From assembly GCA_030648035.1 (NCBI GenBank), contig JAUSII010000122.1, positions 24,537 through 88,536 on the forward strand: a stretch of DNA of 64,000 nucleotides, given 5' to 3'. The notes below the pieces were generated by a model. It was not told where the DNA came from. It made no database searches and saw nothing but the letters and a program-made list of their open reading frames with translations. This stretch comes from Deltaproteobacteria bacterium (GTDB lineage Bacteria > UBA10199 > SPLOWO2-01-44-7). Both the position numbers and the translations under genes were made by a program. Below are positions 1 to 53,352 of this stretch, piece after piece (position 1 is the stretch's first letter; each line of letters starts with the position of its first letter).

Positions 1-204
1 TGGTTCAAAGAGGCACTCCCCAAACAGGGTTGGACCATCAGCGGCGAGGAGCAGGCGACGCCCGAGCTGGGCCAGATCTATTTTGGCAACGACCAATACA
101 GCGGCGCCGTCACCTTCGCCAAAGACAAACAGAGCGGTTTGACCATGATCACCCTCTCCGCCATGACCGCCGAAGAGGCCCAGAAAATTGGGCAGGCCCA
201 GTAA
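1..204 (+). CDS. 3' end of a hypothetical protein (frame 1 is open from the window edge; ...TAEEAQKIGQAQ*)
   Basis: Frame-1 translation is open from nt 1 to TAA at 202-204 with bacterial-like codon usage. The listed 30..242 ORF is in a different frame and looks like a GC-rich shadow. Confidence 0.4.
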   Translation, partial: WFKEALPKQGWTISGEEQATPELGQIYFGNDQYSGAVTFAKDKQSGLTMITLSAMTAEEAQKIGQAQ

Positions 205-567
205 TAACAGCCATCACATTAACCCCGAAGGGGCCCCTTTGAGGCAAAGTGAAGGATCTCGTGAAAATACACAAAAAATTGGGATTCTTCGCTTCACTCA
301 GAATGACACGCCGAAATTTTCATGGATTTTGAGAGGCGCCGCAAAATAAATCTTGACAGCAATTGCATTCATGTACTAGTTCATGAATACACATGAAAAC
401 AGAACCTTTCAAAAATTCTATAAACGCCTTCAGAACCGCTAGATCCGCTGCGCCCTACTCACTTTCTCGTTTTGCCCTAGAAATACAATGGTGGGCTTAA
501 AGCCCATTTCAACCCTGTCTTGATAAATATTTTTTGCCTTTTTTAACCATTTACAACAGGAGGAATT

Positions 568-918
568 ATGTCTCAATACGATTATACATGTTCAAAAAAA
601 ATACACACTTATGGCCCGCCCTGTTTCATGGGTGACAACAATGAACCACAATGCACGTACAAAACAACGGAATGTACAATATTCAAAGTTTTGCCTAGCG
701 ATACGATATTCGATAAATTTTTTTCGATGCACTGTTCTTCATTTTCACTTTTCATTGAAAATGCTCGAACCGCAATCAAAGGAGTTCTTACGGAACATAA
801 AAAATCAACCCTGGCCAATACAGGAGTTGAACGACCCTGTTCTGAAATAAGTCTTTTTGACGGCTGTGGAAGCCGTGATGAAGCACCCATTTGCAAAAAA
901 TGCAGTGGCTCCTTTTAA
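568..918 (+). CDS. small Cys-rich hypothetical protein (116 aa)
   Basis: AGGAGG RBS sits 6 nt upstream of the ATG. The protein has 10 Cys and no recognisable family. Confidence 0.45.
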   Translation: MSQYDYTCSKKIHTYGPPCFMGDNNEPQCTYKTTECTIFKVLPSDTIFDKFFSMHCSSFSLFIENARTAIKGVLTEHKKSTLANTGVERPCSEISLFDGCGSRDEAPICKKCSGSF

Positions 919-991
919 CCAATGGGGGTTGTTTGGTCAAAAGTGGAGAATAGAAAATAGAAAATGGAGGAACCCCGCCTTGCGGCGGGGT

Positions 992-1082
992 TGGTGCCCG
1001 GGGCCGGACTTGAACCGGCAAGGACTGTATTAGAGTCCGAGGGATTTTAAATCCCTTGAGGTTACCATTTCTCCACCCGGGC
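992..1082 (-). tRNA. tRNA-Leu(UAA), CCA encoded
   Basis: Manual cloverleaf: 7-bp acceptor GCCCGGG/CCCGGGC, discriminator A, anticodon stem AGGGA/UCCCU with loop UUUAAAA, long variable arm, CCA encoded. Confidence 0.85.
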
Positions 1083-1725
1083 ATTTTAAATTCTCAAGAC
1101 ACTGTAATGCCTTTAAACGTTTGCGGCCCAATGTTATGCAATTATTTTTATAACATGCAGATAAAACATTAGTTACTGCAGACTTGTTGCTAAATTTTAG
1201 AATATATCCGGTACTGGAATGATATTTTTCAAAATGGATCGTTCCTTTGGCTGCAAGAATCATTTGTGCTCTTTTTTGCAACCAAGTTAAAAAAGTTTTT
1301 GAGCCCGAATTAACCTTACAATACCACATTACTCGTCCTTTGGGCCTCACCCAATTTCTAATGCACCCATCTCCATCCAATACTCCTCTAAAAAAATGGG
1401 TGAATTGTTTTCTTGGGACATTCAAAGCGCCGAGTGTTTTACTTTTATTCGGAGTTAACCCTTGAATTTTCAGAAAATTGTAAAAGGATTTGGAACTGAT
1501 GACAACTCGATGACAAAGTTGTTTATTACCATTCCATTTCCTGCAGACATTACCACTCAACTTCATTTCCACTTTTATCAATTCTAAAAAATCTTTTTCC
1601 TTGGAACTGATATCCACATGCCTTCCATCCGAACTCAAACATCCATCACTTGTAATTAATCCGACTAAATACCAAAGATTCTCCGGAGAAAGGTTTTCCC
1701 AAAAAAATGTCCTTTTTGCTCCCAT
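1030..1725 (-). CDS. LAGLIDADG-family homing endonuclease, double-motif type
   Basis: Two LAGLIDADG-like motifs (LVGLITSDGCLSSDG and FFRGVLDGDGCI). Start taken at the Met just after tRNA-Cys. The 3' 53 nt of the ORF overlap the 5' half of tRNA-Leu. The region is AT-rich relative to its flanks. Confidence 0.75.
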   Translation of the reverse strand: MGAKRTFFWENLSPENLWYLVGLITSDGCLSSDGRHVDISSKEKDFLELIKVEMKLSGNVCRKWNGNKQLCHRVVISSKSFYNFLKIQGLTPNKSKTLGALNVPRKQFTHFFRGVLDGDGCIRNWVRPKGRVMWYCKVNSGSKTFLTWLQKRAQMILAAKGTIHFEKYHSSTGYILKFSNKSAVTNVLSACYKNNCITLGRKRLKALQCLENLKCPGGEMVTSRDLKSLGL

Positions 1726-1727
1726 TG

Positions 1728-1800
1728 AGGCGCGGGGCGGAGTCGAACCGCCGCATGACAGTTTTGCAAACTGCTCCCTTAACCACTTGGGTACCGCGCC
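1728..1800 (-). tRNA. tRNA-Cys(GCA)
   Basis: Manual fold: acceptor GGCGCGG/CCGCGCC, discriminator U, 3-bp D-stem (typical for Cys), anticodon loop UUGCAAA, T-loop UUCGACU. CCA is not encoded. Confidence 0.85.
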
Positions 1801-1930
1801 AAAATTTGTGCAACAAATTTCACGACTTGTTATTCGCAATACGGTTCACACGTCTTAAACAACCCCATCCATGCCGTCAACAAACAAAAAAGGTTTCGCG
1901 AATTACTCCCAACACTGATAGGGTCCGCGC

Positions 1931-2245
1931 ATGAGAAAACTTCTTTTTATACTGGTTTTGATGTCCTTTACCTCTCTTTGCATGGCAGAAGATAATGTGG
2001 AGATCGCCCCACAAACCGGAAGTGGTGGCGGCGGCCAAAAAGCCGTTCGCGGCACTCCCCAGGTAAAGAGCGGAAAACAGATGATGGTGCGGGGTCGGCA
2101 GTGCGTCACCTATTGTCCGGGCGGCGTTCCCACCTGCGCAAAAGAAGAATTGCGTTGCAAAAACCCTCTTCCGGAACAATTTCCGGAGTCGGCAGCAGAC
2201 CGCTTTCCCAATTTGGATGCCACAGATCGGGCGATGCAAAATTAA
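1931..2245 (+). CDS. small secreted Cys-containing hypothetical protein
   Basis: N-terminal signal peptide MRKLLFILVLMSFTSLCMA followed by a Gly-rich linker. Confidence 0.5.
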   Translation: MRKLLFILVLMSFTSLCMAEDNVEIAPQTGSGGGGQKAVRGTPQVKSGKQMMVRGRQCVTYCPGGVPTCAKEELRCKNPLPEQFPESAADRFPNLDATDRAMQN

Positions 2246-2296
2246 TTTACTCTCTTTGCCCTTGCCGACGAAGAACGCCCCTGCTAAGCAGGGCCA

Positions 2297-2965
2297 ATGC
2301 ATCGCCCCTTTTTTTCCATCCCCTGTTTTGCAATATTGTTGTTTGTCTCCCACACCCTTTTTGCCTCTGACACCACCGCTCCCTGGGAACCGCTCAAAAT
2401 AATTGTCATCAAAGCCGATCTTGCTCCAAATAAAAAAGAAAAAGGCCCGCTGGTAAAACAGGCTCTGAAACTCGCAGGGGAATGCGTGGCACAATATCCG
2501 CATGAGGCCGGATGTTATTATTATCGCGGTCAGGCCATCGGCCTCCACACAGAGTCGCTTCTCTTTGGCTGGCAAAAGGAGGTCCGCTTGATGATCGCCG
2601 ACTGGCAAAAGGCCCTCTCACTCGATCCCAAATTTGATCACGGGGGACCTGACCGCATGTTGGGCGAACTTTTCACATCCCTTCCAAAATATTTCGGCAC
2701 CAAAGAAGTGAGACAGGATATTCCCAAAGCGGCATCCCATCTCAAGACATCCATCCAAATCGCCCCCGACTACCCGACCCAGCAACTCGACATGGCGGAG
2801 CTTCTTGTGGACCAAAAAAAATGGGAAGAGGCCAATCTCTATTTGAAAAAAGCAGAACTTCTTTTTCCACAATGTCAAAACGATCCCTATTATCCCGGCT
2901 GGCAGGCGACATTTAAAACTTTAAACAAACAAATCTTGAAAGGAGATTCCCATGGCAAGCGTTAA
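2297..2965 (+). CDS. secreted hypothetical protein (helical, TPR-like)
   Basis: Signal peptide present; no catalytic motifs. Overlaps the ssb start by 14 nt. Confidence 0.5.
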
Positions 2966-3413
2966 CAAAGTAATTCTGATCGGCAACCTTGGCGCCGATC
3001 CGGAAAAGAAAGTGACCGGCGGTGGACTGACCATGTGCAATCTGCGCATCGCCACCACCGACAAGTGGACCGACAAGCAGGGACAAAAGCAGGAAAAAAC
3101 GGAATGGCACCGCGTGGTGGTGTTCGGACCGCAAGCCGACAATTGCGTGAAGTATCTCGCCAAAGGGCGTCAGGCTTATATCGAGGGGAGAATTCAGACC
3201 CGCTCGTGGGACGACCAGCAGGGTGTGAAGAAATATATGACCGAGATTGTTGCAGATCGCGTGCAATTTCTGGGTGGCAGTCCCGGCCAGGGCACCGGCA
3301 CCAGCACCGGCGGCTACAAGAAACCGACCGAAGAGGCCGAACCGTTTCCCGCTGAATTTGGCGGCGGCGCAGACAACCAGGCCAGTGGCGGCGATGACGA
3401 CGTGCCGTTTTAG
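2952..3413 (+). CDS. ssb: single-stranded DNA-binding protein
   Basis: OB-fold N-terminus ([12 protein letters not shown]...WHRVVVFG), Gly-rich tail and the acidic C-terminal tip DDDVPF. Confidence 0.95.
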
Positions 3414-4414
3414 TGTTGTTTGGAGGCGGTGTTGAAGCGGATGCCGACGGAGAAGAGAACCGAAAAATCGACAGAGGGGCCGTCGGCCAGAATATCTTCC
3501 GAGAATCCGACCTGCCAGAAAAAGGGTTTGGCAAATCGGCCAAAACAGTTGTCACCGCGAACACCGATAACGAAATCCATCGGAATTCCATCCCACGTTT
3601 GCAAACCTGTCCCCTTCAGGCGCGGCGTTCCGCCGGTGAGTTGCACAATCGCGGCGGTATGTTCTGAAAAACTATATTCACCCGCCAGGGTATAATCAAA
3701 AAACGGCGTCTCCATCAGATTCAGAAATGCGTTATTGCCGCCGTCGACGAGATAATTGGTGTTGAGATATCCGTGCAGGCGCCGATACGATTTCTCCATC
3801 GCCACGCCAAAACCAAAACCGGCATTCCCCGACCCCAGCCCCCCTTCGGAATCACCGCTCGGAATTTTAAATCCAAACCGCCACGACAATCCCGGCACAA
3901 GTTCCCCTTCATGCAATAATTGATGTTTTGAAAACAGGGTGATGTCACCCAGATTTATTTTTTGGGAACCGGCATTATAGAGCAGACCTCCCCCGCGCGT
4001 GACGCGATAATTATAAACGTCATCGGCCACCTGATCTCTGCCGCCGTTGGGGAATCCGAAAAAATCGTGATAATTCTGGATAAAAGAGTCGAGAAAACCG
4101 CCGTCAAAATGAAGCAGAGGCACTTCGATCCCCACTTCCATATTCGGCAAAACGCCGTAGGTCGCCACCCAGCCGAGGCGCCAGAGTTCCATGTCGAGAT
4201 TTTCTCCAAAGGCGGGGGTCGATTCTTTTTCAAAAATATTGGAATAGGCCGAATCGACGCGCAATTCCAAAACTCCTTTGGGCAACACCTCCGCACGCGC
4301 GGGCAAAAGTGTGATGGTCTGCAGATAAACCGGATTCTGTGTGCGCAACGTGAGCGGACCTTGAGGTGTATAGAAATTGGCGTGGGCCACGGCGGGCAGA
4401 AGCAGTATTGTCAT
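3410..4414 (-). CDS. outer-membrane beta-barrel-like hypothetical protein (DUF3187-like)
   Basis: Signal peptide [12 protein letters not shown], with alternating amphipathic strands rich in G/Y/F. The start codon lies inside the GTCATTGCGAG repeat. Confidence 0.55.
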
Positions 4415-6259: not shown

Positions 6260-7034
6260 AAGAATCTGGTGGAAGGGAGTGTTGAGCGTCTGGTGGCGGA
6301 ATGCGCTGATGTATTCCAAAACCTGGAAACTGAACCTTCTCCCCAATTTTTTCGAGCCGGTTTTTTTTCTGATCGGTTTGGGATTGGGCGTCGGCTTCTA
6401 CATCCAGCAAATCAATGGCGTGCCATATCCTGTTTTTCTCGCACCCGGTCTGATCGCCATCGCCGCAATGAACGGTGCCAGCTTTGAATCAACCTACAAC
6501 GTCTATGTGCGGATGAATTACAATCGCACCTACGACGGCATCCTGGCGACACCGGTCAACGAAAACGAAATTGTGCTGGGAGAAATGTTCTGGTCAATCA
6601 CACGGGCCTGGATTTATGGCGGCGCATTTTATCTGATCACCTGCATGTTCGGATTGATTCCCTCGTGGTGGTCGGTCGGTGTTTTGGGAGTGCTGGTGCT
6701 GACCGGTTATCTTTTTGCCGGTATCGGCATGACCTTTTCGTTTGTCATCCCCGCGATCGATCTTTTCAGCGTCTACTTCACACTCTTTCTCACGCCATTG
6801 TATATTTTCAGCGACACTTTTTTTCCCCTGCAAGAAAGATTGGGAAGCCAATGGATGTGGATTGCAGAGCTCAATCCCCTCTTCCATTGTGTCCGCCTCA
6901 CAAGGGCCTTCACCATGGGGGAGTTTTCGTCGATACTGATTTGGGATCTGATTTATATCATTGCAGTCGGCGGCCTCTTCCATACACTGGCCCTGCGACA
7001 ATTTAAAAAGCGGATTCATCAACCGGCACGATGA
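6252..7034 (+). CDS. ABC-2 family transporter permease
   Basis: Six predicted TM segments; overlaps the ATPase gene by 8 nt, suggesting translational coupling. Confidence 0.85.
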   Translation: MNKRIWWKGVLSVWWRNALMYSKTWKLNLLPNFFEPVFFLIGLGLGVGFYIQQINGVPYPVFLAPGLIAIAAMNGASFESTYNVYVRMNYNRTYDGILATPVNENEIVLGEMFWSITRAWIYGGAFYLITCMFGLIPSWWSVGVLGVLVLTGYLFAGIGMTFSFVIPAIDLFSVYFTLFLTPLYIFSDTFFPLQERLGSQWMWIAELNPLFHCVRLTRAFTMGEFSSILIWDLIYIIAVGGLFHTLALRQFKKRIHQPAR

Positions 7035-8275
7035 CAAATTCAAAAACAGCTCTTGTATTATCGGGTGGGGGCGCACGCGGCGCTTATGAAGCTGGAGTGC
7101 TTTATCATCTTCGCGAGAAGGTCGCCCCCGATCGGCACGGCTTTGCCATTCACTGCGGCACCAGCGCCGGCAGTCTCAACAGCTGTTTTCTGGCCGCTAC
7201 CGCGCACGACCCCACGACGCAGGGAAAAAAATTGCGCCTGCTGTGGGAGAATCTTCGATCCTCCGATGTCTATCGCGGCGATTTTGGCGCCCTGACCCAA
7301 CTTCTCGCCCGTTCAGCCGCCTACACCACCACCCATCTTTTCGGGCTGTCGGGCCTGATAAAAAAATGGGCCGGAGATGTCAAACCATTCCAGGGCATTC
7401 TGGATACCAGCCCCTTCATCCCCTTTCTCAAAAAAGCGGTCCCCTTTTCGCAGATTCGCACCAACATCAAAAAAGGACTCCTCGATGCCATTGCCATCGC
7501 CACCACCAACCTCGGCAACGGAAAGCTGGAGCTCTTCATCGACAAACAAGACTCGGTCGCCTACACCGGCGCCTATCGCATCAAGATCGAACCGATCGAC
7601 TGGGTGCACGCCATGGCCTCCGCCGCGGTGCCCATCATCTTCCCTCCCATTCGCATCGGCCGATATTTTTATGTCGATGGAAGCATCCGCCAGAATACAC
7701 CGATGAGCCCCGCGGTCCAGTTGGGGGCCGACAAAATCATGATTATCGGCGTAAAATATAAACCCAATCTCGAAAACTCGGGGAGTTTTCCGGCGAATGA
7801 AGAGAGCCCCTACCCCAGCTTCACACATATGGCGGGCAAACTGCTCGATGCCCTTTTTCTGGATCACATCGACTATGATCTGGAACAGATGACCCGCATC
7901 AATCGCGTGATCGAATGGAGCGAACAGTTGTATGGGCCCACTTATCTGGAAGACATAAACACCATGTTGCGAAATAAAAAAATCAAAGGCGACATTGCCA
8001 ACCGGGGATTGAAAAAAATAGAGGCCTTCTCGTTTTTTCCGAGCGAAGATATCGGCAAAATTGCCTGTGAGCGGCTGATGAAGTTGAGCCGCAATAAGGC
8101 AAAACTCTCGCAGGTGGAGCGTTTCCTCCTCAAATTTATGGAGGTCGATCCCAAGGCCGACATGGATCTGTTGAGCTATCTTCTATTTGAAAAAGAATAT
8201 ATCGGCTCCCTGATCGACATCGGTATCAAGGATTGCAAGGCGAGAGAGAAAGAGTTGGCCCGGTTCCTGACATAG
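7031..8275 (+). CDS. patatin-like phospholipase
   Basis: Oxyanion-hole GGGARG, nucleophile GTSAG (GxSxG) and the DGS/DGG catalytic Asp motif. Confidence 0.85.
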   Translation: MTNSKTALVLSGGGARGAYEAGVLYHLREKVAPDRHGFAIHCGTSAGSLNSCFLAATAHDPTTQGKKLRLLWENLRSSDVYRGDFGALTQLLARSAAYTTTHLFGLSGLIKKWAGDVKPFQGILDTSPFIPFLKKAVPFSQIRTNIKKGLLDAIAIATTNLGNGKLELFIDKQDSVAYTGAYRIKIEPIDWVHAMASAAVPIIFPPIRIGRYFYVDGSIRQNTPMSPAVQLGADKIMIIGVKYKPNLENSGSFPANEESPYPSFTHMAGKLLDALFLDHIDYDLEQMTRINRVIEWSEQLYGPTYLEDINTMLRNKKIKGDIANRGLKKIEAFSFFPSEDIGKIACERLMKLSRNKAKLSQVERFLLKFMEVDPKADMDLLSYLLFEKEYIGSLIDIGIKDCKAREKELARFLT

Positions 8276-19706: not shown

Positions 19707-21551
19707 TTAAGGCCAAAGAACACTGACCCCTTTGGCTCTCAGGGCATCGATTTGGGAGGAGGGAATTTGGGGGTTACCTTCAAGACCTACAAGATCATCA
19801 CCGTGATCCAATCCACTATTGCTAATAAGAGGATTGATATCTGAAATTTGATTTTCAGTCAGGAGAAGTATGTGTAAATTAATAAGCGACGAGAGGGGAT
19901 TTAAATCTGATATTTGGTTCCCATTAAGAACAAGCGAATACATATTAGTAAGCGCTGAAAGAGGTGCCAAGTCTGATATCAGGTTTTCATGAAGGGTGAC
20001 TCCGGACAAATTAACGAGTGATGCGAGAGGAGACAGGTCTGATATTTGATTATTGTGAAGCACTAGCCCGCCCAAATGTGTGAGCGGCGAAAGAGGGCTG
20101 AGATCTGCAATCTGGTTGTGATCCATATCAATGTTGATCAAATGAATAAGCGATGAAAGGGGGGATATGTCCTGTATCAGATTGTAAGAAAGATAAAGCT
20201 CGGTAAAACTGGCACTGGTAAGCGACGCAAGTGGGCTTAAATCCGATATTTGATTTCTCATAAGACTAAGCCGACGCAAATGAACCAGTGGCAGAAATGA
20301 AAGTGGGGACAAATCTGATATTTGGTTTTCATCAAGGCTCAATTCATAGAGAAGATTAGCAAAACATTCCAAGCCTGACAAATCCTGGATGTGTTTCCCA
20401 TGTAAGCCAATCCACAAGCCTGCGCTTGTTCTGTTTAATGTATCTTGCAATGTGAGATCATCAGTCGGGCCTTTTTCTAAACCTTGTCTTATTGCATTCA
20501 AAAGATTGGAATCTGCAAATGCATCGGTGATAATACCATCTCCATCCGGATCACAGTGTGTTCTGATATTTTGAGGAACAGTACAAACAAACCCCTCGTC
20601 TATTGAGACATTACAGTTATCATCAATATCATTACAATCCTCAACAGCCCCCGGATTTATGTTACCGGCATTATCGTTGCAATCTCCCTCTACGTCGGTC
20701 CAGCCCGACGGATACTTCGAACTCGACAGGCTTGAGCAAACTTCAATGGAATCATTTAAACTTCCATAACCATCATTGTCTACGTCGTGATAAAGGCTCT
20801 TGAAATTGGTGCATTCCGGAGGACCTGCATCTTGATGCCCAGCGTCTGAATGCAAAACCGTTGCGCCAGCATCACGCGCCCCACCGTCCAAATGATCTTT
20901 CCCGCCATGCCATCCATCGACATCCATCTCATTATCGTTTTGACCATTCTGGGAAGGATATCCACAACCAAAAACAGCCATTGCTGAGGCCATTGCAACA
21001 TCACGCACACTCACTCCATTTTGATTCTCTGCCGTATACTTTCCTTTTGGTATCGTCCCTTCACCAAATTTGTAGAAATAGACGCCCGTAACACGGTGAA
21101 TATAATCTCTAAAACCTTCGTCCGATTTCCATCCAATGGATTGCGCAAACCATCCACTTTTTTGTGTTTTGGAATTTGTTATAGCTGGCTCTAAACTGTA
21201 AACATCATTTTTTGAGAATGATGCCAAAGCTCTGTGTTGATTATGGTCTACGGAGGACTTATTTTCCGGAGAACAAACACCTTTAATTGACCAGCCCATA
21301 TTATTAACCTTTCTCTTTCGCCACTCCGTGTAACCCCATACAGTAAGGGTTATCGTCGGTATAGCAAAAAAAGTTGCGTAAAGAGGACCATTAAAGTAGA
21401 GGGGTCCAACTTGGCCCCTTTTTCCGGTGCTTTTCACTCTCGTATCGGTGGCACTCACCGCTATTTTTCTGTATTCGCTATCTTGCTTATTTGGTAGTCT
21501 CCGTCTGATGTTTTTTATTTTCTCCAGGTTGTCTCTTCTTTTTTTGCTCAT
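19707..21551 (-). CDS. leucine-rich-repeat protein (internalin-like LRRs), signal-anchored
   Basis: At least 8 tandem 22-aa LRRs (LxxLxLxxNQISDLSPL) and an Asp-rich middle region. Confidence 0.8.
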   Translation of the reverse strand: MSKKRRDNLEKIKNIRRRLPNKQDSEYRKIAVSATDTRVKSTGKRGQVGPLYFNGPLYATFFAIPTITLTVWGYTEWRKRKVNNMGWSIKGVCSPENKSSVDHNQHRALASFSKNDVYSLEPAITNSKTQKSGWFAQSIGWKSDEGFRDYIHRVTGVYFYKFGEGTIPKGKYTAENQNGVSVRDVAMASAMAVFGCGYPSQNGQNDNEMDVDGWHGGKDHLDGGARDAGATVLHSDAGHQDAGPPECTNFKSLYHDVDNDGYGSLNDSIEVCSSLSSSKYPSGWTDVEGDCNDNAGNINPGAVEDCNDIDDNCNVSIDEGFVCTVPQNIRTHCDPDGDGIITDAFADSNLLNAIRQGLEKGPTDDLTLQDTLNRTSAGLWIGLHGKHIQDLSGLECFANLLYELSLDENQISDLSPLSFLPLVHLRRLSLMRNQISDLSPLASLTSASFTELYLSYNLIQDISPLSSLIHLINIDMDHNQIADLSPLSPLTHLGGLVLHNNQISDLSPLASLVNLSGVTLHENLISDLAPLSALTNMYSLVLNGNQISDLNPLSSLINLHILLLTENQISDINPLISNSGLDHGDDLVGLEGNPQIPSSQIDALRAKGVSVLWP

Positions 21552-50101: not shown

Positions 50102-51154
50102 ATGTCTGACACATCAAGATCTTTGGCGATAGCAGGTGTAGCTTGCGGAGCAGGTGCCGCGATAGGGGCGGGAGCTGGGAGTATTGTCCCGTTAGCGGGA
50201 ACCGCTTCGGGGGCCGCTTTGGGCTGTGCCATAGCTGTTGCGGCCGTTATTTCCAGTGGATGCGAAGGGCGCCCGTGGACGGGCAGTGAATCCGACACCG
50301 ATGTTAATCCCGAAGGTGTTAATCCCGAAAATAATATCTCCGGTACCGTGGACACATCCGATGTATACGCTGCAGGTGATAGAGTTATTCATGCAGGTGC
50401 AGGGAGAGATGGTTATGTTGTTAGTGGCGGTGGTGTTGTCTACGTAGGTGCAGAGGGAGATTTTTATGATGCGGGCAATAGCGTTGCGGATGCCTCTATG
50501 CCGGGATTCGACGCGGGTGATGGTGTTATCGATGCGGGTGATGGCGTCGTCGCCGATGCGGGCGATGGTGTTATTGACGCTGGCGATGGTGACGTTGATG
50601 CAGGGGATCGTTTCGTCGATGCAGGTGTGCGGTATGATGGGGGTTCTGGTGCTGTTGATGCGGGCGTAGTTGATGCAGATGCCGGTACAGTGTTGACATG
50701 TAACGATCTGCAAATTTTGTTGGATGAATCTTCCTGCGTTACAGATCCACAAACGGCTTCCATTTTCAGCAGTGAACTGCCCCGCAGTATTAAAGTGATT
50801 GGATTTACATACGGGGATTCGGATGTTGTTGGCTGTCCCTCCCGCAGTGTCATGTTACACGCGGCTAATCAGTCTCTCTTTATTACTCTTATGGCAGATA
50901 GGGGTTCCATACCGAGACTTCAAACGGATCCCGACGCCACTTTAAGTCCTTTCGCCGAAGATTTTATAAATACAATTAATGGTGAACACACTCTTATTCC
51001 GGCGGACGGTTTTGTCGAGGGGGCCATCGGCGTATGGTGCGATCCAAATCCCGACAACCAATCCTTTATTTTTGACTCGGCGATAGACAGTTTAAATTTG
51101 ATTTACAACGTACCGGGATACTCCTGCAACTATCAGGTGAGTAGCCCGTGGTAG
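50102..51154 (+). CDS. hypothetical protein: Gly/Ala-rich N-terminal hydrophobic region, (DAGDGV)n repeats, Cys-containing C-domain
   Basis: AGVACGAGAAIGAGAGS...; DAGDGVIDAGDGVVADAGDGVIDAGDGDVDAGDR repeats. Confidence 0.5.
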   Translation: MSDTSRSLAIAGVACGAGAAIGAGAGSIVPLAGTASGAALGCAIAVAAVISSGCEGRPWTGSESDTDVNPEGVNPENNISGTVDTSDVYAAGDRVIHAGAGRDGYVVSGGGVVYVGAEGDFYDAGNSVADASMPGFDAGDGVIDAGDGVVADAGDGVIDAGDGDVDAGDRFVDAGVRYDGGSGAVDAGVVDADAGTVLTCNDLQILLDESSCVTDPQTASIFSSELPRSIKVIGFTYGDSDVVGCPSRSVMLHAANQSLFITLMADRGSIPRLQTDPDATLSPFAEDFINTINGEHTLIPADGFVEGAIGVWCDPNPDNQSFIFDSAIDSLNLIYNVPGYSCNYQVSSPW

Positions 51155-51177
51155 TTAAATCCGTGAGAGGAAAAATT

Positions 51178-53352
51178 ATGAATAAAAAAATAGTCAGCAC
51201 CGTGTTGTCCCTCTTCGTAACAGTCCTCACAAGTTTTTTTTCGGGGACAGCCGGGGCACAGACCTGTACCGCGGTGAACGGAGTCTGTACCGTGACACAG
51301 GCGAGCGGCACCGGAAACGAAAGCCTCGAGGCCTGCATCAACACGGCGACCTGTTCAAAGATCATCTTCGGTGTTCCGGAAGTGACCATTGACAAGACGA
51401 TCCCTTTTGGTCGCAGTAATATATTGATCGATGGTGAGGGCATCACGACACTGAACGGCAATCTGCCGATGTTCTTCGAAATCACAAAGTCCAATATTGT
51501 TATTCAGCGCCTTGCCGTCGAAAATGCTGGGGGCATCGCGTTCAGATTGGTCGGCAGTTCCAACACCGTTTCCAATTGTTCCTTTGCGGGCGGCGACTAC
51601 GGTATCGGTGTCTATTCGGGAATAAAAAATCTGCTTTCGATGAATACGTTTTCTGGCGTAGGCAGTGCCGCCATCGCTCTTTTTAATGGAGGGAATGCAA
51701 ACCTCGCTTCTCCAGTGTTGTCTGATGCCTCTCTTGTGAGTGCAGACAAATGGGAGCTTAAAGGGAGAGTCTCTTCGAGAGTGGTGCGGGTGGAGTTGTA
51801 TGAAGCCGATGCGGGGAACGTGCCTCAAGGGATGTCCTATCTGTTTACAATAAGCAATGATCCGGCGAGTGGCATCCGGTCCGACGGCACCTTCGTGGTT
51901 CCGATGGACATCTCGCGATATCATCCGGCCAAGCGCTATGTTGCGTTATCTTTTGACGCGGACAACAATACCTCCGCCTTCTCGAATGTTTTTATCCCGA
52001 CCTCCGACAGCATCGATTTTTTCGGTCCCGATTTTTCCGCCTGCAGTCGCGCTCTGTGGTTTATGAATACGCTTGCGAGCGTGTGGGGTGGCGATTTTGA
52101 CGGTGACAACCTGTCCAATGGTTTTGAAGACAGAAATAAAAATTGTGTGCCTGATTCCGGTGAGACCGATCCCTCTCTTGTGGATACCGATGGCGACGGG
52201 GTTCCGGATGGCGAGGACAATTGCAGTAGTGTTCCCAATCCTCTTCAGGAAGATTTAAATAACAACGGGCGCGGAGATGTATGCGATGGCGATATGGACG
52301 GCGATCGCATACCCGATGCTCAAGACAATTGCCTCACCATTCCCAACGTCGATCAGATGGATACCGATGCGGATGGTCTGGGTGACGCCTGTGATGCCGA
52401 TATCGATGGCGATGGATATAATAATTCGCGCGACAACTGTATTTATATCTCCAATGCGGATCAGAAAGATTTGGATGGTAATGGCGTTGGCGATGTCTGC
52501 GAGAAAGATGATGACCGGGATGGTGTAACAAATTCGAATGACAACTGTCCTTTTGTGCCGAATCCGCTTCAGTCGGACAATGACGGCGATGGTGTCGGGG
52601 ATGTGTGCGATTTTGATATTGATGGAGAAGTAATTTTGAACCCTTCTGACAACTGTCCGCTGGCTCCAAACGCGACTCAAACCGATTCCAATGGCAACAC
52701 GGTTGGTGATGTTTGTGAATTGGATCTCGATGGCGATGGTATCTCTGATTTGAGAGATAATTGCGTGGCCATTCCAAATCCGAATCAAAACGATCTCGAT
52801 TTGGACGGTGTGGGTGATGTCTGTGACATCGATGTGGATGGAGACAAGGTCGACAACAGTGTCGATAATTGTCCCCTGCTCGCCAATGTCGATCAGCTTG
52901 ATACCGACCTCGATGGGAAAGGTGACGTCTGCGATTCGGACGTCGACAATGATGGCGTTCTGAACAATGCAGACAATTGCCCGATCATTGCCAATGCAAA
53001 CCAGAAGGATTCGGTTGGAGACGGTGTTGGAGATGTCTGCGACACAGGTGGCGATAGTGACGGAGATGGCATAGCCGATTTTCAGGACAATTGCCCGTTC
53101 GTTGCCAATGCAGATCAGGCCGATACCGATCATGACGGTGTCGGTGATGCCTGTTTTCAAACGGTCACACTAAAACTAAATGTCGATCAGAATATCGATC
53201 AGCCTCCCCCCACACCGGACCAATACAACATCGGCGGTGGGTCAGGTTGTAGTTTGATCCCCCAAAATACTTTTGATGCAAGTTCCATCGCGGCCCTGGC
53301 TCTGTTGCTGGCGAGCCTTCTTATATTGAGGAGAGAAAAATGCAAAAAATAA
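51178..53352 (+). CDS. secreted right-handed beta-helix-like protein with ~14 thrombospondin type-3 Ca-binding repeats and MYXO-CTERM-like tail
   Basis: Signal peptide ...GTAGA|QT. Repeated DxDxDGxxDxxDNCPxxxNxxQxD units. Ends GGGSGCSLIP...AALALLLASLLILRREKCKK. Confidence 0.8.
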   Translation: MNKKIVSTVLSLFVTVLTSFFSGTAGAQTCTAVNGVCTVTQASGTGNESLEACINTATCSKIIFGVPEVTIDKTIPFGRSNILIDGEGITTLNGNLPMFFEITKSNIVIQRLAVENAGGIAFRLVGSSNTVSNCSFAGGDYGIGVYSGIKNLLSMNTFSGVGSAAIALFNGGNANLASPVLSDASLVSADKWELKGRVSSRVVRVELYEADAGNVPQGMSYLFTISNDPASGIRSDGTFVVPMDISRYHPAKRYVALSFDADNNTSAFSNVFIPTSDSIDFFGPDFSACSRALWFMNTLASVWGGDFDGDNLSNGFEDRNKNCVPDSGETDPSLVDTDGDGVPDGEDNCSSVPNPLQEDLNNNGRGDVCDGDMDGDRIPDAQDNCLTIPNVDQMDTDADGLGDACDADIDGDGYNNSRDNCIYISNADQKDLDGNGVGDVCEKDDDRDGVTNSNDNCPFVPNPLQSDNDGDGVGDVCDFDIDGEVILNPSDNCPLAPNATQTDSNGNTVGDVCELDLDGDGISDLRDNCVAIPNPNQNDLDLDGVGDVCDIDVDGDKVDNSVDNCPLLANVDQLDTDLDGKGDVCDSDVDNDGVLNNADNCPIIANANQKDSVGDGVGDVCDTGGDSDGDGIADFQDNCPFVANADQADTDHDGVGDACFQTVTLKLNVDQNIDQPPPTPDQYNIGGGSGCSLIPQNTFDASSIAALALLLASLLILRREKCKK

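What the first reader, a model, noticed from the sequence alone, without database searches (positions are those of the whole stretch)
992..1800. Double-motif LAGLIDADG homing endonuclease wedged between tRNA-Cys and tRNA-Leu(UAA), overlapping tRNA-Leu by 53 nt
On the minus strand the order is tRNA-Cys(GCA), then 2 nt, then the LAGLIDADG ORF (232 aa), whose last 17 codons read through the D-arm and anticodon arm of an apparently intact tRNA-Leu(UAA). The ~650-bp spacer is conspicuously AT-rich relative to its flanks. Bacterial LAGLIDADG enzymes are normally encoded in introns or inteins. tRNA-Leu(UAA) is the classic host of a group I intron, but here the anticodon loop is uninterrupted. This therefore looks like a free-standing endonuclease that invaded a tRNA spacer, possibly targeting the tRNA gene itself, or a remnant of an intron that relocated.
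Basis: partly seen in the sequence, partly recalled or inferred. Interest (0 to 1): 0.65.

Follow-up and report, generated by a model that had tools for sequence, protein, structure and literature searches.

The report
Homing endonuclease targeting a tRNA-Leu gene
A selfish DNA-cutting enzyme gene sits inside a tRNA operon directly in front of the tRNA-Leu(UAA) gene; it belongs to a large family, not described in the papers I could search, that always occupies this spot and appears to spread by breaking and replacing the tRNA-Leu gene.

Summary
On the minus strand lie tRNA-Cys(GCA), 1-2 nt, an intact two-motif LAGLIDADG ORF (231 aa) and tRNA-Leu(UAA); the ORF runs 53 nt into the tRNA. No group I intron core is present.

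It is not a one-off. At least 470 protein clusters and 292 species genomes (Omnitrophota, Patescibacteria, 'Deltaproteobacteria' MAGs, Armatimonadota, one phage contig) carry relatives. In the 80 loci examined the gene always sits immediately 5' of a tRNA-Leu gene.

Empty alleles, with tRNA-Cys followed 6-27 nt later by tRNA-Leu, are common (60 metagenome loci). One is a syntenic relative of this window.

Nine loci keep a 5' stump of tRNA-Leu (position 1 to about 20-27) in front of the endonuclease gene. Five of the seven Omnitrophota stumps are exact prefixes of empty-site alleles.

tRNA-Leu genes linked to the endonuclease are abnormally divergent: 74% identity to empty-site alleles, against 96% among empty sites. 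Neighbouring tRNA-Cys and tRNA-Val stay at 90% or more.

Best reading: a free-standing homing endonuclease that cuts endonuclease-free tRNA-Leu(UAA) genes near positions 24-27 and travels with a variant tRNA-Leu. Cleavage is inferred, not shown. The read-through into the tRNA is incidental. This is a new variant of intronless homing.

The parts
1852..1880 (-). Promoter-like element of the tRNA operon (TTGACG, 17 nt, TAAGAC), upstream of tRNA-Cys
   Evidence: Read directly from the sequence. The same TTGACR-N17-TA... arrangement lies upstream of tRNA-Cys in the syntenic relatives L084 and L085. The consensus scanner did not flag it because the -10 hexamer ends in C. Inferred, not shown.
1727..1800 (-). 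tRNA-Cys(GCA), no encoded CCA
   Evidence: ARAGORN; Rfam tRNA 62.4 bits. It is 97% identical to the tRNA-Cys of the HEG-free syntenic relative L084.
1030..1725 (-). Free-standing single-chain LAGLIDADG homing endonuclease gene (231 aa). The conserved protein ends near residue 214 (about position 1084); the last 17 codons are tRNA-Leu sequence.
   Evidence: AlphaFold2 pLDDT 94.2. Foldseek top hits are I-Tsp061I, I-DmoI, I-OnuI and I-AniI. The N-terminus MGAKRTFFWE is shared with homologues, so ATG 1725 is the real start.
1636..1677 (-). LAGLIDADG motif 1 (LWYLVGLITSDGCL; catalytic Asp27 at 1645-1647)
   Evidence: D27-G28 are invariant in alignment A1 of 35 family members.
1360..1395 (-). LAGLIDADG motif 2 (FFRGVLDGDGCI; catalytic Asp119)
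   Evidence: D119-G120 are invariant in alignment A1.
992..1082 (-). tRNA-Leu(UAA), intact, CCA encoded: the HEG-linked variant allele
   Evidence: ARAGORN; Rfam 55.1 bits. It is only 84% identical to the L084 allele, whereas tRNA-Cys is 97% identical. The differences lie in the D-loop, base pairs 27:43 and 28:42 (both compensatory), position 32 and the variable arm.
1030..1082 (-). ORF/tRNA-Leu overlap (read-through for lack of a stop codon before the tRNA)
   Evidence: The closest homologue, P0001, stops 1 nt before its tRNA-Leu. 22 of 80 relatives also read into the tRNA, by 15-140 nt.
1046..1069 (-). Inferred position of the endonuclease recognition site in HEG-free alleles (tRNA-Leu positions about 14-37; inferred break about 24-27 = 1056-1059)
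   Evidence: Inference from the end points of the stumps in nine other loci and from the HEG+ versus HEG- differences at positions 10, 13, 25 and 26. Not shown for this enzyme.
961..992 (-). Terminator-like hairpin (9 bp, 7 G-C) plus T-rich tail directly after tRNA-Leu

Best explanation
The ORF is a free-standing, single-chain LAGLIDADG homing endonuclease gene (HEG). It lives inside the tRNA-Cys/tRNA-Leu(UAA) operon and has the tRNA-Leu(UAA) gene itself as its homing target.

Shown by computation:
- The protein is intact and keeps both catalytic aspartates.
- It has no room for a promoter of its own: 1-2 nt after tRNA-Cys, and running into tRNA-Leu.
- The family always sits immediately 5' of a tRNA-Leu gene.
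- HEG-free alleles of the same locus are common.
- Some occupied loci retain a 5' stump of a HEG-free-type tRNA-Leu that ends at about position 20-27.
- The intact tRNA-Leu linked to a HEG is a divergent allele.

Inferred:
- The enzyme cuts HEG-free tRNA-Leu(UAA) genes near the boundary of the D stem and the anticodon stem (about positions 24-27).
- Repair from a HEG-bearing genome copies the HEG together with its linked tRNA-Leu allele. Left-hand homology is in tRNA-Cys; right-hand homology is in tRNA-Leu, tRNA-Val or beyond.
- The linked allele escapes cutting because of compensatory changes around the cut site: G10:C25 to U10:A25 and position 26 in Omnitrophota; pairs 27:43 and 28:42 and the D-loop in this window.
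- Where the left end is joined imprecisely, a 5' stump of the old tRNA-Leu is left behind.
- Expression is by co-transcription with the tRNAs. Processing of the tRNA-Cys 3' end would leave a nearly leaderless mRNA. RNase P cleavage at tRNA-Leu would make this particular mRNA a non-stop message.
- The read-through into the tRNA is an incidental loss of the stop codon.
For: (1) Enzyme. Two motifs, D27 and D119 invariant. Pfam PF14528. The alignment profile hits I-Tsp061I (2dch) at E = 3e-12. AlphaFold2 pLDDT 94.2 with a two-domain alpha-beta-beta-alpha-beta-beta-alpha fold; Foldseek top hits are all LAGLIDADG enzymes. dN/dS is 0.07-0.22 for the six closest pairs, and none of 84 loci has an internal stop.

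(2) Position. In the 80 species genomes examined, 76 have tRNA-Leu(UAA) starting between 139 nt inside the ORF and 16 nt after the stop. Two more have an intron-containing tRNA-Leu(UAA), one has tRNA-Leu(GAG), and one contig ends there. The upstream neighbour varies (Cys in 68; otherwise Val, Thr, Gly or none).

(3) Empty sites. The syntenic relative L084 (TPR-SSB-DUF3187 context) has tRNA-Cys, 189 nt, then tRNA-Leu, with no HEG. Sixty of 64 metagenome loci have tRNA-Cys, 6-27 nt, then tRNA-Leu with no HEG. In the filled/empty pair L047/L178, homology stops at the 3' end of tRNA-Cys and resumes at tRNA-Val.

(4) Stumps. L005, L009, L014, L025, L033, L054, L059, L083 and phage contig L099 carry tRNA-Leu nucleotides 1 to about 20-27 directly upstream of, or fused to, the HEG start codon. 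Five of the seven Omnitrophota stumps (L005, L009, L025, L033, L054) are exact prefixes of common HEG-free alleles; those of L014 and L059 carry 1-3 differences. The 20-mer GGGCAAGTGGTGGAATGGCA is the 5' end of tRNA-Leu in 19 of 22 HEG-free loci that contain it; in the other three the contig ends just after it. In the three HEG+ loci that contain it, it occurs only as the stump. For L014, L025, L033 and L059 the syntenic HEG-free relatives carry the stump's allele type, not the type of the linked tRNA-Leu.

(5) Divergent linked allele, measured on syntenic locus pairs. HEG-/HEG- (n = 56): tRNA-Cys 97.3%, Leu 95.9%, Val 92.9%. HEG+/HEG- (n = 82): Cys 92.1%, Leu 74.3%, Val 90.0%. G10:C25 occurs in 56 of 60 HEG- alleles against 23 of 62 HEG+ alleles, always replaced by another Watson-Crick pair (Fisher p = 2e-11, not corrected for phylogeny). 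Window against L084: Cys 97%, Leu 84%.

(6) Spread across phyla, plus one phage copy.

(7) Among HEG+ loci, tRNA-Leu similarity tracks HEG similarity after controlling for tRNA-Cys (partial r = 0.24, Mantel p = 0.001).
Against: - No cleavage or homing has been demonstrated. The cut site is inferred from nine stumps whose ends scatter from position 20 to 27.
- The window itself has no stump, and its only empty-site relative is distant (51% identity in the flanking TPR protein).
- The window's tRNA-Leu keeps G10:C25 and A26, so the Omnitrophota signature does not apply to it directly.
- All copies are intact and under purifying selection, and HEG GC tracks host GC (r = 0.83). A useful resident gene would show the same pattern.
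- In L005 and L054 the stump is not of the type carried by syntenic HEG-free relatives, so some stumps must travel with the HEG.
- The HEG+ and HEG- samples were collected by different criteria, and pairs of loci are not independent.
- tRNA-Leu alleles of the HEG+ type occur in 4 of 60 empty sites.
Confidence: 0.68

Rival explanations
1. Domesticated LAGLIDADG protein. It is a vertically inherited host gene of the tRNA operon, for example a DNA- or RNA-binding regulator or maturase in the manner of WhiA or intron maturases. It is no longer mobile, and the divergence of tRNA-Leu is lineage history.
For: Strong purifying selection and no degenerate copies in 84 loci. HEG GC correlates with host GC, r = 0.83. 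Constant position in several phyla. WhiA and maturases appear among the fold matches.
Against: Both catalytic Asp residues are invariant. There is abundant presence/absence at syntenic loci, including pairs with identical tRNA-Cys. tRNA-Leu stumps lie at the ORF start. There is a phage-borne copy with a stump. The excess divergence is confined to tRNA-Leu and spares the neighbouring tRNAs. GC is lower than the flanks in 81 of 82 loci.
Confidence: 0.12
2. A free-standing homing endonuclease whose target is the tRNA-Cys/tRNA-Leu spacer, or the spacer/tRNA-Leu 5' junction, rather than the interior of tRNA-Leu. The site is destroyed simply by the insertion, and the divergence of tRNA-Leu is co-conversion only.
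For: The ORF lies between the two tRNAs with very tight junctions: 5-12 nt after tRNA-Cys-CCA in many Omnitrophota and 0-16 nt before tRNA-Leu. Classical insertion splits the target. Co-conversion alone could replace the neighbouring tRNA-Leu.
Against: Spacers of empty sites are short and not conserved. The HEG stays with tRNA-Leu when the upstream neighbour is Val, Thr, Gly or nothing. Stumps end inside tRNA-Leu at about position 20-27, not at its 5' edge. Differences between HEG+ and HEG- alleles are compensatory pair swaps at 10:25 and 26 rather than wholesale replacement in many alleles.
Confidence: 0.14
3. Remnant of a group I intron ORF that moved out of tRNA-Leu(UAA), or a mis-delimited intron-containing tRNA.
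For: tRNA-Leu(UAA) is the classical host of a bacterial group I intron. Two relatives (L007 = CP064976 and L013) have a group I intron in the tRNA-Leu directly downstream of the HEG.
Against: There is no group I match in window 600-2300 even at E <= 10. The tRNA-Leu is intact. In L007 and L013 the ORF lies outside the intron, upstream of the 5' exon. In the other 76 loci with tRNA-Leu(UAA), ARAGORN finds the tRNA uninterrupted.
Confidence: 0.03

Closest known systems
Phage T4 SegB (GIY-YIG free-standing homing endonuclease in the T4 tRNA gene cluster; PMC2330249)
   Same: It is a free-standing endonuclease gene embedded among tRNA genes. Its recognition site includes conserved tRNA-gene sequence. 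It drives preferential inheritance of itself together with the neighbouring tRNA genes (intronless homing).
   Different: SegB is GIY-YIG, phage-borne, and recognises the T-psi-C stem-loop motif shared by several tRNA genes. The present family is LAGLIDADG, mostly chromosomal in uncultivated bacteria of several phyla, tied to one tRNA (Leu-UAA), and has an inferred break at the boundary of the D stem and the anticodon stem. Activity is proven for SegB and only inferred here.
Collaborative (trans) homing: F-CphI with the psbA intron in cyanophage, and mobE with I-TevIII in T4 (PMC6083498, PMC2790892; review PMC3984707)
   Same: A free-standing endonuclease sits next to a gene whose ORF-less group I intron lies at or near the endonuclease target. 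L007 and L013 show this layout: HEG followed by an intron-containing tRNA-Leu(UAA).
   Different: In the window and in 76 of the 80 relatives examined there is no intron, so immunity, if any, must come from sequence variation in the tRNA gene. The nuclease family is also different.
Archaeal intron-encoded single-chain LAGLIDADG enzymes I-Tsp061I and I-DmoI (PDB 2dch, 2vs7)
   Same: Closest solved relatives by sequence profile (E = 3e-12) and by fold. Same size (about 200-220 aa), two motifs, one chain.
   Different: Those are encoded inside rRNA introns of archaea and cut rRNA genes. Sequence identity is only about 18%.
LAGLIDADG genes inserted in the mitochondrial rps3 gene with duplication of the displaced gene end (Ophiostoma I-OnuI/I-LtrI; recalled from the literature, not checked here)
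   Same: The endonuclease gene inserts into an essential host gene, and host function is preserved because part of the host gene is duplicated or regenerated next to the insert.
   Different: That case involves a protein-coding host gene and a 3'-end duplication in fungal mitochondria. Here the host is a tRNA gene in bacteria, a 5' stump is left upstream, and a complete variant tRNA lies downstream.

Membership tests
LAGLIDADG homing endonuclease, single-chain (two-motif) type | Two LAGLIDADG motifs in one polypeptide | tested here: met
   LVGLITSDG (residues 20-28) and FRGVLDGDG (residues 112-120).
LAGLIDADG homing endonuclease, single-chain (two-motif) type | Acidic catalytic residue at the end of each motif | tested here: met
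   D27 and D119 are invariant in the 35 aligned family members.
LAGLIDADG homing endonuclease, single-chain (two-motif) type | Two pseudo-symmetric alpha-beta-beta-alpha-beta-beta-alpha domains | tested here: met
   AlphaFold2 pLDDT 94.2, pTM 0.90, with the expected order of secondary-structure elements. Foldseek PDB hits are I-Tsp061I, I-DmoI, I-OnuI and I-AniI, all at probability 1.00.
LAGLIDADG homing endonuclease, single-chain (two-motif) type | Profile membership (Pfam LAGLIDADG_3) above the curated cut-off | tested here: met
   PF14528: 34.3 bits against a cut-off of 22.5.
LAGLIDADG homing endonuclease, single-chain (two-motif) type | Site-specific cleavage of a site of about 20 bp leaving 4-nt 3' overhangs | not testable with these tools
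   Needs purified protein and substrate DNA.
Free-standing HEG / intronless homing | The ORF is not inside an intron or an intein | tested here: met
   No group I or group II intron match in 600-2300. The ORF lies between two intact tRNA genes.
Free-standing HEG / intronless homing | Presence/absence polymorphism at the same locus in related genomes | tested here: met
   L084 is an empty site in the window's syntenic context. There are 60 empty Omnitrophota-type loci and 82 syntenic HEG+/HEG- pairs.
Free-standing HEG / intronless homing | The target lies in the HEG-free allele close to the insertion point, and the HEG's own allele is not cut | tested here: inconclusive
   Indirect only: stumps ending at tRNA-Leu position about 20-27, and variant D-arm / anticodon stem in linked alleles.
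Free-standing HEG / intronless homing | Co-conversion of flanking markers | tested here: inconclusive
   Linked tRNA-Leu is 74% identical to empty-site alleles, whereas empty-site alleles are 96% identical to one another; tRNA-Cys and tRNA-Val stay at 90% or more in HEG+/HEG- pairs. L042 and L186 have roughly 85-90% identical flanks but tRNA-Leu of a different acceptor type. This fits co-conversion but no cross was done.
Intron-encoded HEG (group I intron of tRNA-Leu) | A group I ribozyme core surrounds the ORF and interrupts the host gene | tested here: not met
   No Intron_gpI match in the window. The tRNA-Leu anticodon loop is intact.
Collaborative homing pair (free-standing HEG plus ORF-less intron) | [quoted passage not shown] | tested here: not met
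   Not in the window. It is met in layout only in L007 and L013. Whether the intron lies within the recognition site cannot be tested here.
Domesticated LAGLIDADG (WhiA-like or maturase) | Loss of catalytic residues and/or uniform vertical presence in a clade | tested here: not met
   Catalytic Asp residues are invariant. The distribution is patchy, with many empty sites.

The most novel reading that the evidence does not exclude
The family and the tRNA-Leu(UAA) gene are locked in a drive-and-resistance cycle across bacterial phyla. The endonuclease forces repeated compensatory rewriting, or wholesale replacement, of the D stem and anticodon stem of an essential tRNA. The ORF-less group I intron in the tRNA-Leu(UAA) anticodon loop acts, and may persist or have spread, as an immunity device against this endonuclease. 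It lies 6-9 nt from the inferred cut, and in L007 and L013 it accompanies a D-arm of the HEG-free type. That would tie one of the oldest known introns to a free-standing LAGLIDADG partner. It would also supply hundreds of natural enzyme/target pairs for reading LAGLIDADG specificity.
Probability: 0.2. Interest if true: 0.85.

Novelty: new variant of a known kind. Interest (0 to 1): 0.66.

Why it matters
Free-standing homing endonucleases and intronless homing are known mainly from T-even phages. LAGLIDADG enzymes in bacteria are known mainly from rRNA introns and inteins.

Here a chromosomal LAGLIDADG family is tied to one essential tRNA gene in at least 292 species of mostly uncultivated bacteria. 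Filled sites, empty sites, stumps and variant alleles are all visible in public data.

If the inferred mechanism holds, three things follow.
(i) A selfish element is a major driver of tRNA-Leu(UAA) sequence turnover. This affects the use of tRNA genes as markers and annotation: the ORF is often miscalled with tRNA-derived extensions, and it did not surface for this MAG in the protein search.
(ii) It is a natural case of a gene drive carrying a resistant copy of its essential target.
(iii) It gives a testable route from a free-standing endonuclease to the tRNA-Leu group I intron (collaborative homing).
(iv) It provides a large set of compact (about 215 aa) meganucleases with co-varying natural targets.

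A 2026 survey concluded that most bacterial tRNA introns lack endonuclease genes and are therefore poorly mobile (PMC13011429). Endonuclease genes lying just outside the tRNA would have been missed by that approach.

Tried and rejected
- Group I intron search. The window 600-2300 at E <= 10 gave only the two tRNAs and noise. The intron reading is rejected for the window.
- Search for a tRNA-Leu stump in the window (22-mer, up to 3 mismatches): only the gene itself.
- The 189-nt spacer of L084: no tblastn similarity to the HEG. L084 is absent from the hit lists, so it is not a decayed copy.
- Viral contigs: 42 loci with only distant LAGLIDADG relatives (35% identity or less). Only L099 has the tRNA-Leu module, so phages are not the main reservoir in that collection.
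- AT-richness as a sign of recent arrival: it is a family-wide property that tracks host GC, so it does not date the insertion.
- Whether stumps are always the recipient's old allele: true for L014, L025, L033 and L059, but not for L005 and L054. Some stumps must travel with the HEG.
- L042/L186 as a clean filled/empty pair: rejected, because about 1.4-2 kb downstream of tRNA-Val also differs. L047/L178 is the clean pair.
- Tight co-inheritance of HEG and tRNA-Leu: the correlation is only weak (partial r = 0.24).
- L186 ORF 3239-3874 looked LAGLIDADG-like by eye, but Pfam finds nothing.
- Literature searches for a description of this module found none. The library is incomplete, so this is not proof of novelty.
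- The consensus promoter scanner did not flag the conserved TTGACG-N17-TAAGAC element.
Full report
OBSERVATION

On the minus strand ARAGORN finds tRNA-Cys(GCA) at 1800-1727 and tRNA-Leu(UAA) at 1082-992. Rfam confirms both, at 62.4 and 55.1 bits. Between them an ORF starts at ATG 1725, which is 1-2 nt after tRNA-Cys. It ends at the stop codon 1032-1030, 53 nt inside tRNA-Leu. It encodes 231 aa with two LAGLIDADG motifs, LVGLITSDG and FRGVLDGDG. Pfam LAGLIDADG_3 scores 34.3 bits against a cut-off of 22.5.

The ORF has 35.5% GC against about 51% in the flanks. An E-value-threshold Rfam scan of 600-2300 shows no group I intron.

The unit looks like one operon. A promoter-like TTGACG-N17-TAAGAC (1880-1852) is conserved in two syntenic relatives. 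A 9-bp G+C-rich hairpin with a T tail follows tRNA-Leu at 992-961.

The window comes from an NCBI MAG labelled 'Deltaproteobacteria bacterium'. The neighbouring TPR protein is 100% identical to Q7T03_10115.

THE PROTEIN

At least 470 clusters at 90% identity match the protein with E <= 1e-3, the best at 56% identity. Most are 219-222 aa long and most of the named ones are from Candidatus Omnitrophota. A profile search of 1.84 billion representatives gives 186 clusters at 50% identity with E <= 1e-30, inside a superfamily of 22,275.

In an alignment of 35 members both catalytic aspartates (D27-G28, D119-G120) are invariant. The profile hits the archaeal intron enzyme I-Tsp061I (2dch) at E = 3e-12. 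AlphaFold2 gives pLDDT 94.2 and a two-domain LAGLIDADG fold. Foldseek returns I-Tsp061I, intein endonuclease domains, I-DmoI, I-OnuI and I-AniI.

The six closest gene pairs have dN/dS of 0.07-0.22, and none of 84 loci has an internal stop.

The window's subclade (with P0001, P0004 and P0006) lacks the C-terminal GWSKSKT motif found in most members. P0001 stops 1 nt before its tRNA-Leu, whereas the window copy has no stop there and reads on for 17 codons. In total 22 of 80 relatives read into the tRNA, by 15-140 nt, while most stop 0-16 nt before it. The overlap is therefore incidental.

A CONSERVED MODULE, NOT A LOCAL ACCIDENT

A scan of one genome per GTDB species found 292 genomes encoding a relative. 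The best 80 are mostly Omnitrophota, with two 'Deltaproteobacteria' MAGs, one Pseudomonadota MAG, one Armatimonadota MAG and many Patescibacteria.

In these 80 loci tRNA-Leu(UAA) lies on the same strand directly after the ORF in 76. Two more (L007 = CP064976 and L013) have a tRNA-Leu(UAA) interrupted by a group I intron. One contig ends there, and one locus has tRNA-Leu(GAG).

tRNA-Cys(GCA) is the upstream neighbour in 68 loci. When the neighbour is Val, Thr, Gly or nothing, the ORF still sits against tRNA-Leu. In many Omnitrophota only 5-12 A/T-rich nt separate tRNA-Cys-CCA from the ATG, and 6-10 nt separate the stop from tRNA-Leu. There is no room for a promoter of the gene's own.

The adjacency of tRNA-Cys and tRNA-Leu(UAA) is old. 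E. coli K-12 has cysT, 12 nt, then leuZ.

EMPTY SITES

The closest syntenic relative available (L084; TPR-SSB-DUF3187 context; TPR protein 51% identical) has tRNA-Cys, an unrelated 189-nt spacer, then tRNA-Leu(UAA), with no endonuclease gene.

A metagenome scan used the pattern of an Omnitrophota-type tRNA-Cys 3' end, 1-30 nt, then a tRNA-Leu 5' end. It returned 64 loci. Sixty are tRNA-Cys, 6-27 nt, tRNA-Leu(UAA), often followed by tRNA-Val, with no endonuclease gene. The other four are cut by contig ends.

Many of these share flanking genes with occupied loci. In L047 (occupied) against L178 (empty), homology at about 80% identity stops at the 3' end of tRNA-Cys and resumes at tRNA-Val.

STUMPS OF tRNA-Leu

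In L005, L009, L014, L025, L033, L054, L059 and L083, the first 20-27 nt of a tRNA-Leu gene (5' acceptor strand plus D-arm) lie directly upstream of the ORF. The same is true in a 196-kb phage contig (L099) whose enzyme is only 33% identical. In L009, L025 and L033 the start codon is the AATGG of the D-loop.

Relative to full alleles the stumps end at positions 20, 22, 24, 25/26, 26, 26, 27, 27 and 27 (my reading).

Five of the seven Omnitrophota stumps are exact prefixes of the commonest empty-site alleles: GGGCAAGTGGTGGAATGGCATACA... and GCCGGGATGGCGGAATTGGCAGACGCA. The stumps of L014 and L059 differ from them at 1-3 positions. The exact 20-mer GGGCAAGTGGTGGAATGGCA begins the intact tRNA-Leu in 19 of 22 endonuclease-free loci that contain it; in the other three (L138, L167, L187) the contig ends within or just after it. 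In the three occupied loci that contain it, it occurs only as the stump.

In every case the intact tRNA-Leu after the ORF differs from the stump. For L014, L025, L033 and L059 the syntenic empty relatives carry the stump's allele type. For L005 and L054 they do not, so stumps can also travel with the ORF.

THE LINKED tRNA-Leu IS ABNORMAL

The comparison used locus pairs that share at least 1.5 kb of flanks.

| Pair type | n | Flanks | tRNA-Cys | tRNA-Leu | tRNA-Val |
|---|---|---|---|---|---|
| empty / empty | 56 | 80% | 97.3% | 95.9% | 92.9% |
| occupied / empty | 82 | 76% | 92.1% | 74.3% | 90.0% |
| occupied / occupied | 52 | 77% | 88.5% | 79.1% | 87.1% |

Examples: L010/L141 have tRNA-Cys 100%, Val 93% and Leu 79% identical. 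L042/L186 have roughly 85-90% identical flanks but tRNA-Leu genes with different acceptor stems.

Only one allele is shared between the 62 occupied and 60 empty loci. The largest column differences are at positions 6, 10, 13, 25 and 26. G10:C25 occurs in 56 of 60 empty alleles against 23 of 62 occupied ones. In the occupied ones it is replaced by U:A, A:U or C:G, always a Watson-Crick pair, usually with U26 (Fisher p = 2e-11, not corrected for relatedness). Occupied alleles that keep G10:C25 carry D-loop substitutions instead.

The window fits the general pattern. Its tRNA-Cys is 97% identical to that of L084, but its tRNA-Leu only 84%. The acceptor stem, D stem and T arm are nearly unchanged. 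The D-loop, pairs 27:43 and 28:42 (both compensatory), position 32 and the variable arm differ.

Among occupied loci, tRNA-Leu similarity follows endonuclease similarity weakly but significantly after controlling for tRNA-Cys (partial r = 0.24, Mantel p = 0.001).

INTERPRETATION

The simplest account is intronless homing aimed at the tRNA-Leu(UAA) gene. The enzyme cuts endonuclease-free alleles near the boundary of the D stem and the anticodon stem. Repair from an occupied genome copies the ORF and its linked tRNA-Leu. That linked allele carries structure-preserving changes around the cut and is presumably resistant. Imprecise joining on the left leaves a stump of the old gene, which later decays.

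The four empty loci with an 'occupied-type' allele would then be sites from which the endonuclease gene was lost. That is expected in the gain, fixation and loss cycle of homing endonuclease genes (established knowledge, after Goddard and Burt).

Cleavage, resistance and homing are all inferences. So is expression by co-transcription, with a near-leaderless mRNA after tRNA-Cys 3' processing.

RIVALS

A domesticated host protein would explain the purifying selection and the GC tracking (r = 0.83). It would not explain the empty sites, the stumps, the phage copy or the divergence confined to tRNA-Leu.

A spacer-targeting endonuclease does not explain stumps that end inside the tRNA, or the fidelity to tRNA-Leu when the upstream gene changes.

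A relocated intron ORF is excluded for the window. [quoted passage not shown] This is the layout of collaborative homing (PMC3984707, PMC6083498). Both of those tRNAs keep a D-arm of the empty-site type (G10:C25, A26). That is what one would expect if the intron, 6-9 nt from the inferred cut, gives the protection. It rests on two loci only.

COMPARISON WITH WHAT IS KNOWN

The protein is a member of the LAGLIDADG family. All sequence and fold criteria are met; activity is untested.

Functionally the nearest case is T4 SegB, a GIY-YIG endonuclease in the phage tRNA cluster. SegB recognises tRNA-gene sequence and drives inheritance of itself and neighbouring tRNA genes (PMC2330249).

I found no paper describing a LAGLIDADG family tied to tRNA-Leu(UAA). 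A 2026 survey of bacterial tRNA introns reports that most lack endonuclease genes and does not mention free-standing ones beside the tRNA (PMC13011429). The library is incomplete, so novelty is provisional.

I class this as a new variant of a known kind.

VERDICT

The free-standing, tRNA-targeting reading is supported and sharpened, and the intron-remnant reading is rejected. Interest is 0.66. The anatomy and comparative signal are strong and, in the papers I could search, undescribed. The mechanism belongs to a known class and is not yet demonstrated.

Noticed in passing
L039:1773-2489 (+); L051:2210-2635 (+); L081:3876-4460 (-); L083:3001-3621: Other, more distant LAGLIDADG ORFs also sit immediately 5' of tRNA genes. 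L039 has a 238-aa LAGLIDADG_3 protein ending 10 nt before tRNA-Cys(GCA). L051 has a second hit upstream of tRNA-Cys. L081 and L083 have copies directly 5' of tRNA-Leu(GAG). Placing a LAGLIDADG gene 5' of a tRNA gene may be a wider strategy than tRNA-Leu(UAA) alone.
   Followed up: partly
L007 (= L002:3664-3995) and L013:1081-1436: The group I introns in the endonuclease-linked tRNA-Leu(UAA) genes lie between U33 and U34 as read from the sequence: the 5' exon ends ...GGACT and the 3' exon begins TAAAATCC. The classical tRNA-Leu position is 34/35. Both tRNAs keep a D-arm of the empty-site type.
   Followed up: partly
L099:2890-3725 (IMGVR_UViG_3300048997_000130, 196,676 bp): A large phage contig carries the same module with a distant enzyme (33% identity): a tRNA-Leu 5' stump (GCCCTTGGTGGAATCGGCAGACACGA), the LAGLIDADG ORF (ATG 2926 to 3633), then an intact tRNA-Leu(UAA) at 3640-3725.
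   Followed up: partly
L132, L136, L188, L192 (metagenome loci): Four of 60 endonuclease-free loci carry the U10:A25/U26 tRNA-Leu allele class that is typical of occupied loci. They may be sites left behind after loss of the endonuclease gene.
   Followed up: partly
L186:3239-3874 (+): In an endonuclease-free locus, a 211-aa ORF overlaps the 3' end of tRNA-Val by 12 nt. It contains 'LLLYWAEGNKG', which looks LAGLIDADG-like by eye, but Pfam finds nothing.
   Followed up: partly
L042:3822-5207 versus L186:3262-5302: Between roughly 85-90% identical flanks, the 1.4-2 kb downstream of tRNA-Val holds unrelated genes in the two genomes: an HD-GYP/HAMP-like protein in one, three small ORFs in the other. 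The tRNA cluster is a recombination hot spot beyond the endonuclease gene.
   Followed up: no
window 200-900: The stretch downstream of the tRNA-Leu terminator is AT-rich (37-41% GC against about 52%). Its ORFs (568-918 on the plus strand, 609-896 on the minus strand) have no Pfam match. Its origin is unknown; it could be part of a co-converted or foreign tract.
   Followed up: partly
L085 (contig end at the tRNA-Cys 3' end); ENA contig of P0130 (no DNA available): In another relative of the window's lineage, the Logan contig breaks exactly at the 3' end of tRNA-Cys. The longer ENA contig has a 165-aa ORF cut by the contig end, on the strand and side where the endonuclease gene would lie. It may be a second occupied site in this lineage.
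   Followed up: no
window 7031-8275 (+); 19707-21551 (-); 51148-53352 (+): Other genes in the window: a protein with a weak, sub-threshold N-terminal match to a CBASS-type phospholipase, an internalin-like LRR protein, and a protein resembling the myxobacterial MYXO-CTERM protein MtsC (just below that model's cut-off).
   Followed up: no
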